From positions 1 to 31,754 of the IMG/VR virus record IMGVR_UViG_3300034523_000112: a stretch of 31,754 bases of DNA; one strand, written 5' to 3'. Source of the stretch: a virus. Taxonomy: Duplodnaviria; Caudoviricetes. Below are positions 2,802-6,953 of the stretch, one piece after another. The notes beneath the pieces are model-generated. The model was not told the origin of the DNA. It did no database searches and saw only the letters and a program-made list of their open reading frames with translations. Positions within the stretch are counted from its first letter, which is position 1. Every line of letters starts with the position of its first letter. Made by a program: the position numbers and the translations under genes.

Positions 2802-3355
2802 GACTTTCTCCTCTTAATCTCTTTTTTAATTTCGTTCTGCAGGTGCAGGATGTCGATTAGCTCCTCGGGCAGATCCTTGTGTTTTGCGTGACGGCGGATT
2901 TGGTTCTCGGAGCGCGTGCGCAAACAAAGGTTGTCCAGCTCAACGTTCCGAACATTCCCGTCCTTCGCCGCTACGATCATCCCTTCGGGGACTGGGCCGT
3001 TTGCCTGCTCCCAGGTGTGTGTATGAAGCGGCTTCCAAACATCCGGCTGGGAAACCTTCACAAGGATGTATCGCCCCTTCTGATGTATTGCTCCGACCGG
3101 CCTCGGGTCTTGGCCAGGTGGCTTGCCGCGCTTTTCCCAAGCCGAGAAGAATGCTTTTCTGGAAGACTCCGCGCGATGAGCCGCGCTCTTCCTAATCCCC
3201 AGCCCTTTAGCTCTTTGGCAAATTGCGGTAAGGGTGCGACCAGGTAGGAGATTCAACATGGAGTCATTGCCACCGGCTTCGTAAAACCGCCGAATAATGC
3301 CGTCCTCGGCTTCGCTCCAGCGCTTTGTTTGGCGCCCGCCTGCATCCTTACGCAC
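2798..3355 (-). CDS. HNH_3-like protein with N-terminal Myb/SANT-like repeat
   Basis: KRWSEAED...LPGRT...RAKGLG, then H..WEQANGPVPEGMIVAAKDGNVRNVELDNL. Confidence 0.75.
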   Translation of the reverse strand: MRKDAGGRQTKRWSEAEDGIIRRFYEAGGNDSMLNLLPGRTLTAICQRAKGLGIRKSAAHRAESSRKAFFSAWEKRGKPPGQDPRPVGAIHQKGRYILVKVSQPDVWKPLHTHTWEQANGPVPEGMIVAAKDGNVRNVELDNLCLRTRSENQIRRHAKHKDLPEELIDILHLQNEIKKEIKRRKS

Positions 3356-3515
3356 GACAGTGGTCCTGCTGAAAATGGTCAGCCAGCACCCGGCGTGCGT
3401 CGATGCCGCACGATGCCGACAGCTTGTAGATCTGGCCGAAGGTGGTTTCCCGGCGCTGCAAGGCGTTAAACAGCTCGATCAAACGCTGGGCCTTGGTACC
3501 GTTGCAGCGGTTCAT
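3348..3515 (-). CDS. Small 55-aa phage protein
   Basis: Manual [58 protein letters not shown]; ATGA overlap upstream, overlaps the next start. Confidence 0.7.
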   Translation of the reverse strand: MNRCNGTKAQRLIELFNALQRRETTFGQIYKLSASCGIDARRVLADHFQQDHCRA

Positions 3516-3793
3516 AGTTGGAACCTCTTTTCCTGTGGGAGTGGGGCGGCGGTGGCGGGCCCAATCTCGCCGGCAGAAACTACCAGAGAGACCCGTGCTG
3601 CCTCATCTTCTGGGGTGGCGGTGGTCGTGCCCTGCTGTAGGAGCGAACTGTCCGGCAAGCAGCTGATGCCGGTGCCCGCGATGATCCAGCAGGTGACCGA
3701 GCGCACGCTGTCGTGCTGTACATCGATCAGCTGCTCGCCTGCGGCGGCCTGGTCGATTACCAGCAGCAGGGCGATAGCGATCATTCGGCGCAT
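3512..3793 (-). CDS. Hypothetical protein with signal-peptide-like N-terminus
   Basis: [18 protein letters not shown]; fits the coupled operon. Confidence 0.65.
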
Positions 3794-4209
3794 GGGTGCG
3801 ACTCCAGCAGGCGGGCCAGGCGCAGGGCATTGTCAATTTCCCGATCCAACTCCTCGCCGGTTAAGTAGCGGTCGCCTCGCAACACGAGCAGGTCGTTGTC
3901 GACATCTTCGATCAGAGCCCTATCTCGCAGGTGGCGGTAGCGCCTGGCGTCTGCCGCCATCTTCACGCGCTCATCGATGCTCACTGATGCATCAGGGTCG
4001 TGGGTGTCGGCGGTTTGTTCAGACTGCCCCGCAGCAACCGTCTCTGCGCGGATGCGCTCGTAGACTTCCTGACGATGCACTGCTACCCCAGGAGGGGCAG
4101 TGATGCCCAGCCGTGTCTGCTGTCCGCTGACGCCAAGCACGGTAAGTATGATGTCGTCGCCGATCCGGATGTTTTCACTTGGCTTTCGAGTGAGAATCAA
4201 CATGGTCAA
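3781..4209 (-). CDS. csrA: Phage CsrA/RsmA-family protein with C-terminal extension
   Basis: [48 protein letters not shown], plus ~85 extra residues. Confidence 0.9.
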
Positions 4210-4279
4210 ACTCCTTTTTCAGGCAAGCCGGTGGCCCGCCGATATATGGAAATCAGTGAAGATTGGTTAATTCTTTTTG

Positions 4280-4750
4280 TTAGGACGCTTTGAGCAGTCC
4301 TGTTTTTCGTTTGCCTTCGCGTCGCACGAAAGCCGTTACGCCACACAGCTTCGCCTGGGCGTCAGCATGTTCCCGGCGCTTTTCTTCTGAAAGCTCGTCA
4401 TAGCGGATATTGCGAATTGCACCGGCCAACTTGCCCAGCTCTTGTTTTACCTTTCCGAATGCCGAGTGCCATGCGAACTCAACTTGTTCGTTTGGCTCAA
4501 CTACTTCATAGCCGGCTCCGCGAACATTACGAAGAACCAACTTATGCTCTTCAAGAAGTTCCTGGCGAAGGGCATCCATGCTGGCGAGAAAATCAAGTTG
4601 GTAAGACTTGAATTCATCGATGCTTTTTGGCTCTTGCAGGTGAAATGCTTCCTGGAGCCAGACCATGCTCACCAGATCGCCATATTTGAACTTCTCGGCA
4701 ATATCTTTAGCTGCCTGGCGCCATTCAGGGTGGAGTGTCGTATTGGTCAT
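4280..4750 (-). CDS. Hypothetical winged-helix-like protein, partner of the Cas7-like gene
   Basis: ATGA overlap with 4747-5331; LRQEL...LRNVRGAGYEVV resembles a wHTH recognition helix and wing. Confidence 0.7.
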   Translation of the reverse strand: MTNTTLHPEWRQAAKDIAEKFKYGDLVSMVWLQEAFHLQEPKSIDEFKSYQLDFLASMDALRQELLEEHKLVLRNVRGAGYEVVEPNEQVEFAWHSAFGKVKQELGKLAGAIRNIRYDELSEEKRREHADAQAKLCGVTAFVRREGKRKTGLLKAS

Positions 4751-5331
4751 TCCATCACCTCGACATTGAAGCGACCGAACGCACCACCTTTCTCTGGGCG
4801 GTAGTCGCAGAGACCAACGAACAGGCCTGCGTTCTCGGCGGCTCGGATTACATCTTCGCGCTCGATCATTTCGGGCGAATACATAATTTCAACGGTGGTG
4901 GTCCAGTCCGAAAACTTAGGTCGGTACCGGATAATCCGGGAGGTGCCCACCACCACGCTGCGCGCATCTACAAAGCGTGGGTTGGCGAACATCTTTTCTT
5001 GGTCGCGCGGCCCGGTGTATTCGAGCTTGCAACGATCATCCAGAACCAGCACAGCACGCTTGAACGCAGCACCCAGGCGCTGGATCTTTGCCGCACCAAC
5101 GAGTGCTGACTTAATGTTCTGGCCGGGCAGGAATGGACCGAGCTCTGCATCATGATATAGCGCTCCGAGCCATTCCGACTTGGCGATATCGGCGTGGTCC
5201 TCATCCAGCTTTTTGCGCTTGCTGGTTAGCACTTTGTGACCCTTGGTCGCTTCGTCCAACGGATTGGCGAACCGGTCGCTGTGCATCAGCAGCGGCGACT
5301 GGCCAATGAGTTTGAGTTTGATCGTCTGCAT
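4747..5331 (-). CDS. Solo Cas7/RAMP-like RNA-binding protein (Vipr-like)
   Basis: N-terminal strand IKLKLIGQSPLLMH; PFLPGQNIKSAL (cf. RAMP PxIPGSSxKGAL); C-terminal Gly-rich loop GLCDYRPEKGGAFGRF; no other cas genes nearby. Confidence 0.75.
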   Translation of the reverse strand: MQTIKLKLIGQSPLLMHSDRFANPLDEATKGHKVLTSKRKKLDEDHADIAKSEWLGALYHDAELGPFLPGQNIKSALVGAAKIQRLGAAFKRAVLVLDDRCKLEYTGPRDQEKMFANPRFVDARSVVVGTSRIIRYRPKFSDWTTTVEIMYSPEMIEREDVIRAAENAGLFVGLCDYRPEKGGAFGRFNVEVME

Positions 5332-5400
5332 TTTCCGTACCCTGCCTTGATGGTTGTTTCACTGCACTGATCACCAAGTGGTGACCAGTACGCTGATACA

Positions 5401-5465
5401 TCCAGCCCACGCCCCGCCATTCCTTACCGCGCCAAGCCGCGCCAAGCCAAACCGCGCAGCGCCAT
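5401..5465 (-). repeat. Pentamer tract A (13 units)
   Basis: Minus strand: AT GGC GC TGC GC GGT TT GGC TT GGC GC GGC TT GGC GC GGT AA GGA AT GGC GG GGC GT GGG CT GGA. Confidence 0.9.
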
Positions 5466-5518
5466 GGTGATGCTTTCGCATCGCACAGAGCTCTCAGTGA
5501 AAGCTCTGTACGCTGCTT

Positions 5519-5578
5519 TGCAGCCCATGCCACGCCTTACCAGACCCAGCCATGCCTAGCCGCACCATGGCTCGCCGC
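5519..5578 (-). repeat. Pentamer tract B (12 units)
   Basis: Minus strand: GC GGC GA GCC AT GGT GC GGC TA GGC AT GGC TG GGT CT GGT AA GGC GT GGC AT GGG CT GCA. Confidence 0.9.
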
Positions 5579-5628
5579 GTGATGCCTTAGCACCGGACAG
5601 CACCCTCACCGAAGGCGCTCGCCGCTGC

Positions 5629-6018
5629 TTATGCGATCGTGTAACCGTCAACCCGTCGCGCCGTCATGCGCAACTCGACACGACGCTCACCACCACCACG
5701 GCGAACCCGGAGCATCTGGTCGTCACTGATAGCGGAATGGCCGGTGAGGATTGCGCAGATCAGCACCACTAGATGGCGCGCTATGCCACGGCAGAACAGC
5801 TCTGTAGGAATTGCCGAGCGACTGGTGATACCGAGCTTGAAGAAGACGCGCTCAATGGATTTTTTGACGGTGCCGGGAGCGCAGCCAACGACACGAGCAA
5901 TTTCCTTGTTGGCCAAGCCAGCGCAGACAGCAAGGGCGGCACGCAGCTCTTGTTCAGCAAGTACGCCGGTGGTGCCTTGGAGCTTGCCGAAATTGATAAC
6001 CGTGCTCATCTCTTTCAT
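5629..6018 (-). CDS. LuxR-type HTH protein, first gene of the leftward operon
   Basis: EQELRA...AGLANKEIARVVGCAPGTVKKSIERVFFKLGITSR. Confidence 0.85.
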   Translation of the reverse strand: MKEMSTVINFGKLQGTTGVLAEQELRAALAVCAGLANKEIARVVGCAPGTVKKSIERVFFKLGITSRSAIPTELFCRGIARHLVVLICAILTGHSAISDDQMLRVRRGGGERRVELRMTARRVDGYTIA

Positions 6019-6045: not shown

Positions 6046-6074
6046 AATATAAGCAGATTTATATAAGTGATCAA
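6046..6074 (-). promoter_or_regulatory. PL-like promoter with overlapping operator
   Basis: Minus strand TTGATC-17 nt-TATATT; operator ATAA-GCAGAT-TTAT at 6049-6062. Confidence 0.7.
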
Positions 6075-6173: not shown

Positions 6174-6953
6174 CTAGTAAAATGATGCGCCCCAGAAGAC
6201 GCGCCCCATGATGCGGATGTTGGCGTCTTCCATCTCGCGCACCGAATACGTCTCATCGGGATGCTCATTGGTATTGTAGCTTTTCATGCGGACGCCGCCG
6301 CCTGGCAGTCGGTAGAGCGCCTTTACCCTGATCTGCCCTCCGTGGTCTAGCACGTACATGCGACCGTCAACGACTTGAGTCTCGCGCAAGTGGGCAACAA
6401 CGGTGCCGCCGTCCTGTAGAACTGGGGTCATTGAGTTACCAGAGATCGCTGCAGCCACAACGTGTTCGGGTAGCACTCCTTGTTTCGAAAGTATCTCGGT
6501 GTTGAGGTCGAGATGAACCTTTACGCTAATCTCGACGACCGTCTTCGATGGGTCGCGAGGGTCGTCCAGCTCAATCAGATAGGGTATTTCCTCCGTCAGA
6601 AGAGAGTTGGAAGGCGCGTACCGGCTCGCACTCCTGAGCTCTTCAATCCTGTCTCGTAATGCAGAGTTGAGCGCTGCGTCATCCTCGTGTTCGCCGCGGA
6701 GGATCTCCTCAAGCTCACTACTGAAGTAGGACGCAACATCTTCTGGCGAAAGCATTTCGCCTTCCCCGGATGCTAGCCATGTGCTGTTCACGCCACATGC
6801 TCTGGCTATCTGAACCAGATAGGAAGATCGCAGCGTCTTCCCAGATTCGAGTTGGCTGATGGCTGTCTGCGCGATACCAACGGATTCGGCAAGCTGAGAC
6901 TGGGTAAGTCCTGCTTTCTTCCGGGCAAGTTTGATTCGGTCGGATAGATTCAT
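6174..6953 (-). CDS. cI: CI-like repressor (XRE HTH plus S24 domain)
   Basis: RIKLARKKAGLTQSQLAE..GIAQTAISQLESG; GNSMTP and RVKAL S24 motifs; divergent from cro. Confidence 0.92.
   Translation of the reverse strand: MNLSDRIKLARKKAGLTQSQLAESVGIAQTAISQLESGKTLRSSYLVQIARACGVNSTWLASGEGEMLSPEDVASYFSSELEEILRGEHEDDAALNSALRDRIEELRSASRYAPSNSLLTEEIPYLIELDDPRDPSKTVVEISVKVHLDLNTEILSKQGVLPEHVVAAAISGNSMTPVLQDGGTVVAHLRETQVVDGRMYVLDHGGQIRVKALYRLPGGGVRMKSYNTNEHPDETYSVREMEDANIRIMGRVFWGASFY

What the first reader, a model, noticed from the sequence alone, without database searches (positions are those of the whole stretch)
5365..5627. Array units are punctuated by structure-conserved, sequence-divergent hairpins
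Seen on the minus strand: three CAGCG motifs (plus-strand CGCTG at 5623, 5511, 5391), each followed by a long stem: AGCGCCTTC-GGT-GAGGGTGCT; TACAGAGCTTTC-ACT-GAGAGCTCTGTG; TACTGGTCACC-ACTT-GGTGATCAGTG. Each tract is preceded by a tetraloop hairpin (GGTGC-TAAG-GCATC; GATGC-GAAA-GCATC), has a non-GGY second unit and ends GGG-CT-G(C/G)A. G-U pairs work on the minus strand, which supports RNA in that orientation. Inference: these are processing or boundary signals yielding ~112-120-nt guide RNAs, analogous to CRISPR repeats (three boundaries, two guides).
Basis: partly seen in the sequence, partly recalled or inferred. Interest (0 to 1): 0.75.

Follow-up and report, generated by a model that had tools for sequence, protein, structure and literature searches.

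The report
RNase III cassettes release VIPR guides
A Pseudomonas prophage carries two guide units of the recently described VIPR system between three conserved hairpins that are likely cut by the host enzyme RNase III, and both guides match genes of closely related rival prophages better than the phage's own copies, so they would likely silence competitors while sparing itself.

Summary
The hairpins are real. They punctuate a type II VIPR guide array (two GGY/NN tracts) upstream of vipr (full-length match to SUSP1 Vipr, E 2e-39) and vap1 in a Pseudomonas prophage. The long stem covaries across homologs (11 of 13 pairs change on both sides), and G·U pairs favour the minus strand. Corrections: CAGC is the 3' arm of a short covarying hairpin, not a free motif, and 112/120 nt is the unit period. 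The long stems carry an RNase III signature: U·G plus U-A near the loop in 176 of 213 stems versus 21 of 1363 control hairpins, and G-C excluded at the third pair from the inferred cut (1 of 213). This predicts mature guides of about 85 and 93 nt (untested). With the 1-nt skip code both guides hit the early-left operon of kin prophages (39 and 28 of 44 loci; 0 of 44 with other skips), and the phage's own copy has diverged. The system is known; RNase III processing was not in the three VIPR preprints as far as searched, but this scan proposed it before on other DNA (e1-8346140).

The parts
5629..6018 (-). LuxR/GerE-type HTH gene, first gene of the early-left operon; its stop codon abuts the first hairpin
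   Evidence: (PF00196 E 9e-09)
5595..5627 (-). Leader boundary: CAGC (5627-5624) plus long stem P2 (5623-5595) with an internal loop at pairs 3-4; no upstream short hairpin arm
   Evidence: nearly the same leader in 188-aa (P. fulva-type) Vipr loci
5581..5594 (-). Tetraloop hairpin P3; predicted 5' cap of guide 1 after cutting
   Evidence: role inferred
5527..5581 (-). Guide tract A, 11 pentamer units; decodes (1-nt skip) to a 55-aa early gene of kin prophages
5512..5526 (-). Short hairpin P1 (GCTG...CAGC); predicted 3' cap of guide 1
   Evidence: covariation; role inferred
5483..5511 (-). Long stem P2, 13 bp, with U·G, U-A, C-G at pairs 11-13 and A-U at pair 5; predicted RNase III site (cuts 5510/5509 and 5483/5482)
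   Evidence: cut sites inferred
5469..5482 (-). GAAA-tetraloop hairpin P3; predicted 5' cap of guide 2
   Evidence: role inferred
5409..5463 (-). Guide tract B, 11 units; decodes to a conserved intergenic element just downstream of the first early-left gene of kin prophages
5392..5408 (-). Short hairpin P1 of the last boundary
5360..5391 (-). Terminal long stem P2 (5391-5364, 12 bp) plus AGTG; lacks the U·G/U-A pair set and P3, so predicted to be a weaker site
   Evidence: inference
4747..5331 (-). vipr, 194 aa RAMP-like guide-binding protein; H17, K33, R137, D176, Y177, R178 match the residues used by SUSP1 Vipr
4280..4750 (-). vap1-family accessory gene, 156 aa
   Evidence: phrog_5926, same family as the gene after vipr in a Felixounavirus
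4213..4256 (-). Remnant of the intergenic element targeted by guide B, with the targeted core replaced
   Evidence: read by eye against kin loci
3348..3515 (-). Own copy of the 55-aa target gene; guide A site at 3415-3446 scores 17 of 22 because two codons differ (Lys-Leu for Ala-Met)
6046..6074 (-). Sigma70-like promoter match that could drive the operon; not above chance
   Evidence: 2 found, 1.6 expected

Best explanation
This is a type II VIPR guide array in which each long hairpin is likely a minimal RNase III substrate, so the host enzyme would cut the early-left transcript into two capped guide RNAs (predicted 85 and 93 nt) that likely direct Vipr filaments to silence the early-left operon of rival kin prophages. 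Shown: conserved three-part boundary (short hairpin P1, long stem P2, hairpin P3), adjacent vipr-vap1, the base-pair signature in P2, the two target matches and the divergence of the phage's own copies. Inferred: transcription on the minus strand; cuts after the second pair of P2 on the 5' side and at the end of P2 on the 3' side, removing 26-28 nt; P1 plus a 2-nt overhang protecting the 3' end (in place of the SUSP1 pseudoknot) and P3 protecting the 5' end; a transcription roadblock upstream of the rival's xis and int genes, which would stop it excising or integrating.
For: Vipr: full-length match to the solved SUSP1 Vipr; vap1 family shared. Covariation on a MAFFT alignment not fitted to the structure: 87% of cells paired versus 69% shuffled, 15 of 22 pairs with double changes, slid controls 35-55%. 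RNase III signature: in 213 unique stems from 87 loci, pair 11 is U·G in 198, pair 12 U-A in 186, pair 5 G-C/C-G in 1, pair 6 G-C or G·U in 170; both apex pairs in 176 of 213 versus 21 of 1363 control hairpins. PMC1540722 gives for E. coli RNase III an 11-bp helix between cut and loop, a 28-nt product, UA/UG distal box, G-C at pb1 and A-U/U-A at pb2 with G-C/C-G inhibitory. All 5 long hairpins of a SUSP1-family locus show the same pairs, and the predicted cut leaves a 42-nt tail, against the ~40 nt published. Predicted guides of 47 Pseudomonas units have median 91 nt, in line with '<100 nt'. Targets: both guides fall 0.4-4.1 kb apart on the same strand in 8 of the 13 genomes (of 391) hit by both; in 44 kin loci guide A scores at least 18/22 in 39 and guide B in 28, 0 of 44 at skips 0, 2, 3; skipped bases of A are third codon positions (98% versus 83% conserved). 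Guide A carriers score 17, 16, 16 through two different protein alleles.
Against: No RNA end was observed and no cleavage tested. The 213 stems share ancestry and were picked with sequence anchors and at least 9 of 12 pairs, so counts overstate independence. The paper's text says the distal box set lies directly next to the loop, which could put it one pair higher than here; the exact match in register rests on my recall of the crystallised substrate. Pair 4 is often mismatched or C-G, and the window's last stem lacks the U·G/U-A pairs. The distal box is reported not to be conserved in sequence across substrates or species. The 44 loci were fetched with the target gene of guide A, so that count is not independent. 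The 3'-most unit of A matches 0 of 41 sites and the last two units of B match 4 and 8 of 28, while the structures suggest engagement from the 3' end. Guide B also has a 21/22 chance-like hit in a host gene. All VIPR-bearing kin lack the B site, with or without guide B, so that loss is not specific escape; 5 of 44 non-carriers also score 17 or less for A.
Confidence: 0.68

Rival explanations
1. The hairpins are boundaries, but Vipr (as a Cas6-like RAMP) or Vap1 recognises the conserved apex pairs and cuts or protects them; RNase III is not needed.
For: Vipr is a RAMP relative; guides co-purify with Vipr when the locus is expressed in E. coli. Conserved pairs could be a protein-binding site.
Against: The conserved positions coincide with RNase III determinants in two different tail types. 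No nuclease activity of Vipr is mentioned in the texts seen. Other VIPR types use ribozymes, which suggests Vipr itself does not cut.
Confidence: 0.14
2. The long stems are not cut; they are retained 3' tails that stop exonucleases after cuts by a single-strand endonuclease (such as RNase E), giving guides close to the 112-120-nt unit length.
For: P1-P2-P3 is very stable (-34.7 kcal/mol, 94% of the ensemble); the discovery paper describes a structured 3' tail on each guide.
Against: Stability alone does not explain a fixed 28-30-nt length, a required U·G, and exclusion of G-C at one pair in GC-rich DNA. Published guides are about 100 nt or shorter.
Confidence: 0.13
3. The boundaries are self-cleaving ribozymes, as in hammerhead-interspersed VIPR arrays.
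For: Such arrays exist in types I and V.
Against: No Rfam family at E below 1.6; no hammerhead core visible; conserved single-stranded residues are few.
Confidence: 0.03
4. The hairpins are terminators or DNA-level recombination sites with no role in RNA maturation.
For: Near-identical hairpin modules recur in arrays with different guides and different Vipr clades, so they may aid guide exchange.
Against: No U-tracts and no terminator match in the array; 19% of pairs are G·U on one strand only and 164 of 167 stems are more stable on the guide strand (selection favours this).
Confidence: 0.02

Closest known systems
Type II VIPR, Pseudomonas fulva prophage clade (10.64898/2026.04.26.720920; 10.64898/2026.04.26.720927)
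   Same: Guide array, vipr, vap1 in a Pseudomonas prophage; targets in other prophages; no self-match above 80%. Loci with the 188-aa Vipr that fits all nine published residue numbers (P0088) use the same leader and internal hairpins at the same insertion point.
   Different: This Vipr is 194 aa and 54% identical to that clade; the last tail differs; two guides. Tail structure and processing of that clade are not described in the text seen.
SUSP1 VIPR (Felixounavirus; PDB 36pp)
   Same: Vipr homolog over the full length, same Vap1 family, tract then cap stem then long hairpin; the long hairpins show the same RNase III-like pairs.
   Different: 38% identity; SUSP1 guides end in a pseudoknot, here a 4-5-bp hairpin; the covariance model does not hit the SUSP1-family locus; lytic phage against a satellite versus prophage against kin.
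Minimal E. coli RNase III substrate uR1.1 (PMC1540722)
   Same: 11-bp helix above the cut, 28-nt product, U-A/U·G near the loop, G-C then A-U/U-A in the proximal box.
   Different: Natural array in Pseudomonas, flanked by short hairpins; distal-box register not confirmed from the text; cleavage untested.
CRISPR repeat processing (Cas6; tracrRNA plus RNase III in type II) (recalled)
   Same: A polycistronic precursor is cut at structured boundaries into single guides.
   Different: Boundaries differ in sequence, need no tracrRNA and no dedicated nuclease; guides read DNA with a gapped code.

Membership tests
VIPR type II | vipr gene (RAMP homolog with G-loop and thumb residues) | tested here: met
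   E 1.8e-39 to SUSP1 Vipr; H17, K33, R137, D176, Y177, R178 present
VIPR type II | vap1 accessory gene next to vipr | tested here: met
   phrog_5926 in both the window and the Felixounavirus locus
VIPR type II | Tracts of 9-16 GGY/NN units followed by a structured tail | tested here: met
   11-12 units each; covarying tail
VIPR type II | Targets found with the 1-nt skip rule and not with other skips | tested here: met
   39 and 28 of 44 at skip 1; 0 of 44 at skips 0, 2, 3
VIPR type II | Discrete guides expressed and bound by Vipr; transcriptional silencing | not testable with these tools
   only contig-level presence of a related array in RNA libraries
P. fulva VIPR clade (over 90% Vipr identity) | Vipr over 90% identical to the P. 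fulva protein | tested here: not met
   published residue numbers fit P0088 9 of 9 and not this protein; 54% identity. The identification of P0088 as that clade is inferred from the numbering.
SUSP1-type vrRNA | 3' pseudoknot tail | tested here: not met
   P1 loop of 3-7 nt followed directly by P2; model R1 does not match L133
RNase III substrate | At least 11-bp helix above the cut | tested here: met
   stems of 28-30 nt, 12-13 bp; last stem of the window has 10 bp above the inferred cut
RNase III substrate | Proximal box: G-C at position 1, A-U/U-A and no G-C/C-G at position 2 | tested here: met
   pair 6 G-C or G·U in 170 of 213; pair 5 G-C/C-G in 1 of 213 (79 mismatched)
RNase III substrate | Distal box U-A/U·G at the right distance from the cut | tested here: inconclusive
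   pairs present in 176 of 213; distance ambiguous by one pair in the text seen; exact fit only by recall
RNase III substrate | rnc-dependent cleavage | not testable with these tools
   needs experiment
Hammerhead-interspersed VIPR array | Hammerhead ribozyme between guides | tested here: not met
   no Rfam ribozyme match

The most novel reading that the evidence does not exclude
Type II VIPR arrays, in both Pseudomonas prophages and SUSP1-like phages, are matured by host RNase III at portable cassettes that switch fold: in the precursor CAGC pairs with the downstream RRUG to supply a second proximal box (166 of 167 and 139 of 167 compatible at the two free positions), and after the double cut the halves refold into a 3' cap for one guide and a 5' cap for the next. 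Guides so released police kin phages that compete for the same attachment site, and carriers escape their own guide by amino-acid changes because the code skips wobble bases.
Probability: 0.5. Interest if true: 0.68.

Novelty: new member of a known kind. Interest (0 to 1): 0.55.

Why it matters
How type II VIPR guides are cut out of their arrays is not addressed in the three VIPR preprints as far as searched. The model names the enzyme, the cut sites and the guide ends, and one rnc-null experiment tests it. If right, it gives a design rule for multiplexed VIPR arrays, predicts that RNase III levels or inhibitors tune phage-phage competition, and shows an RNA-guided system that borrows a host nuclease without a tracrRNA. 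The locus also offers a clean natural pair for self versus non-self tests: the same site with and without a two-codon change.

Tried and rejected
Exact search of guide A in IMG/VR: 0 hits. Exact search of 10 units of guide B: 2 hits in one phage type with a reverse-transcriptase-like neighbour and no sign of being a Pseudomonas phage; treated as chance. Many 3-mismatch genome hits are recurrent host coding sequences; the 21/22 hit of guide B in G035 lies antisense in a host metabolic gene (gene label by my recognition); not taken as a target. Rfam: nothing on the array or on six target loci. Pfam: nothing for Vipr; no solved structure for Vap1. RNA data were sought with the LESphi2-type array L003, not the window: contigs from RNA libraries of 3 studies cover the array (X1, X2, X14), X6 and X13 cover vipr but not the array, contig breaks fall at 2352-2487 near the last hairpin; contigs show no ends, strand or level, and holes prove nothing. 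Three raw-read runs gave 0 reads. Alignment A2 had two wrong coordinates and was replaced by A3. P3 could not be scored well in alignments because of variable loops (58-69% paired); by single folding it is present in 129 of 167 tails. The exact uR1.1 sequence was not found in text. Figures S6, S8, S15 and Data S3 of the discovery paper could not be seen and may already show P. fulva guide ends or these targets.

Full report
Setting. The window is a Pseudomonas prophage: mutS fragment and integrase at the left end, cI (6174-6953) and cro (7040) in the middle, head and tail genes at right (mutS, integrase and structural labels by my recognition). The finding lies in the leftward early operon between a LuxR-type gene (6018-5629) and a 194-aa ORF (5331-4747). 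That ORF matches the solved SUSP1 Vipr over its full length (E 1.8e-39) and keeps the residues used for GGY binding and silencing. The next ORF is in the same PHROG as the gene after vipr in a Felixounavirus. The only long GGY/NN tracts in the window are the two between the hairpins. This is a type II VIPR locus as defined in 10.64898/2026.04.26.720920 (whole text read; figures not visible; supplement PDF only term-searched).

Observation. All described elements are present at the stated places, fold far better than shuffles and better on the minus strand. CGCTG itself is common (96 in the window).

Anatomy. Homologous loci came from IMG/VR (51), GTDB (7), metagenomes (73), phage records and Pseudomonas genomes. 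Each internal boundary has three parts. P1: the tract's last GG-GCTG pairs with CAGC; in 167 unique tails from 73 loci both free positions pair in all cases, switching between G-C and A-U (the inner CT/AG were anchors). P2: a 12-13-bp stem of 28-30 nt whose sequence turns over; on a 24-row MAFFT alignment 11 of 13 pairs change on both sides, RNAalifold finds P1 and P2 unaided, and a model-fitted set of 83 rows agrees. P3: a short hairpin starting at the conserved RRUG (129 of 167). The model finds three sites in the window, none in 41 VIPR-free kin loci and none in the SUSP1-family locus (81 sources). Loci whose 188-aa Vipr fits all nine residue numbers published for P. fulva Vipr (P0088) share the leader and internal hairpins and the insertion point (14 of 81 leader-motif hits had arrays). 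That clade's guides were shown by small-RNA sequencing and pull-down in the paper, so discrete guides are expected here too; this Vipr is a sister clade at 54%.

Likely processing. Within the otherwise free P2, some pairs are fixed: of 213 unique stems from 87 loci, pair 11 is U·G in 198, pair 12 U-A in 186, pair 5 G-C/C-G in only 1, pair 6 G-C or G·U in 170. Both apex pairs occur in 176 of 213 (36 of 45 leaders, 89 of 104 internal, 51 of 64 terminal) against 21 of 1363 control hairpins. PMC1540722 (Results, first part of Discussion and legends read) defines the minimal E. coli RNase III substrate as an 11-bp helix above the cut, a 28-nt product, a UA/UG distal box and a proximal box with G-C and A-U/U-A, the latter at the third pair from the cut. 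Setting pair 5 as that third pair puts the cuts after pair 2 and at the end of P2, and excises 28 nt from a 30-nt stem. The distal-box distance is ambiguous by one pair in the text; by recall of the crystallised substrate it fits exactly. The five long hairpins of a SUSP1-family locus show the same pairs, and the predicted cut leaves a 42-nt tail, close to the ~40 nt in print. For the window the model gives guides 5594-5510 (85 nt) and 5482-5390 (93 nt), each folding P3 at the 5' end and P1 at the 3' end. CAGC can alternatively pair with RRUG (the leader's preferred fold; 166 and 139 of 167 compatible), which would supply a second proximal box; the middle boundary, however, prefers P1-P2-P3 (94% of ensemble). 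The last stem lacks the apex pairs and may be cut less well. All of this is inference from sequence; passages of PMC3867540 and PMC3074117 warn that distal-box sequence is not conserved across species.

Targets. With the 1-nt skip rule and up to 3 mismatches, guide A hit 40 of 391 Pseudomonas genomes (reversed control 12) and guide B 76 (control 7). Many hits are host coding noise, but of 13 genomes hit by both, 8 have the two sites 0.4-4.1 kb apart on one strand. These are kin prophages (of 44 IMG/VR kin loci, 19 show the same integrase and 13 mutS within the fetched DNA). Site A lies in a 55-aa gene upstream of xis and int, with skipped bases at third codon positions; site B is an intergenic element after the first early-left gene, where this phage carries its VIPR cassette. 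In the 44 loci (fetched with the 55-aa protein; the one guide A carrier removed) A scores at least 18/22 in 39 and B in 28, 0 of 44 at other skips, and unit-shuffled guides average 0.02 and 0.28 loci. The three guide A carriers score 17, 16 and 16, through two different protein alleles; three kin phages with another VIPR but not guide A keep the full site (20/22). By hand, 3 of 3 versus 5 of 44 gives p near 0.004, but two carriers share an allele. The B site is absent from all VIPR-bearing kin, so its loss follows the insertion rather than the guide. Both guides are complementary to the coding strand. Mismatches at the 3'-most units are a caution, since the structures suggest 3'-to-5' engagement (10.64898/2026.04.26.720927, part 1 of 6 and passages). 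A roadblock upstream of xis-int would parallel SUSP1 silencing a satellite recombinase (10.64898/2026.10.15.759431, parts 1-2 of 8 and passages).

Novelty. The system and its prophage-versus-prophage role are published. 'RNase' does not occur in the main texts of the discovery and structure preprints and only as RNase A in the third; no held paper has VIPR, vrRNA and RNase III together. A fourth preprint treats VIPR only as periodic arrays (passages). Unseen figures and data files may bear on guide ends and targets. This scan reached the RNase III reading earlier on another genome (e1-8346140); I had noted it before that look-up, and the repeat is not independent evidence. Verdict: new member of a known kind, with a specific, testable maturation model and decoded targets; interest 0.55.

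Noticed in passing
L132 (OQ594955.1, phage LESphi2) 2024-2500; L003-L006: The P. aeruginosa prophage LESphi2 carries a 90% identical Vipr with three guides and four hairpins, annotated only as hypothetical. Its first guide matches 20/22 upstream of vipr in L007.
   Followed up: partly
L007 2371; L296; L280; L288: Guides aimed at other VIPR phages: L007 guide 2 matches the vap gene of 188-aa-type loci 21/22; an L296 guide matches vipr genes 19/22; an L280 guide matches this window's LuxR-type gene 19/22 near 5724; an L288 guide resembles guide B and its best hit is the same element.
   Followed up: partly
kin loci such as L204, L223, L256; remnant at window 4213-4256: A conserved intergenic element after the first early-left gene of many Pseudomonas prophages, with hairpin potential and no Rfam match; function unknown; it is the target of guide B.
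   Followed up: partly
window 3348-3515: Conserved 55-aa gene of unknown function (weak phrog_22608/8961) upstream of xis-int; a few VIPR-free loci (L229, L233) carry changes at the guide A site that could be escape alleles.
   Followed up: partly
L214, L215, L220 and window: Two Vipr clades (188 and 194 aa, 54% identical) occupy the same slot behind the same leader hairpin, which suggests the cassette is swapped downstream of a shared first hairpin.
   Followed up: partly
230 homologous tracts: The last unit before the tail is biased to AA/AT (154 of 230) and matched 0 of 41 sites for guide A; it may be structural rather than read.
   Followed up: partly
L052: Pseudomonas typographi locus with an 87% identical Vipr and an array of eight hairpins.
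   Followed up: no
window 3781-4209: Phage-borne CsrA/RsmA-family gene directly downstream of vap1.
   Followed up: no
L140, L141: Phage contigs with a reverse-transcriptase-like gene whose N-terminus repeats the end of the upstream gene, resembling a diversity-generating retroelement (label by recognition); unrelated to this finding.
   Followed up: no
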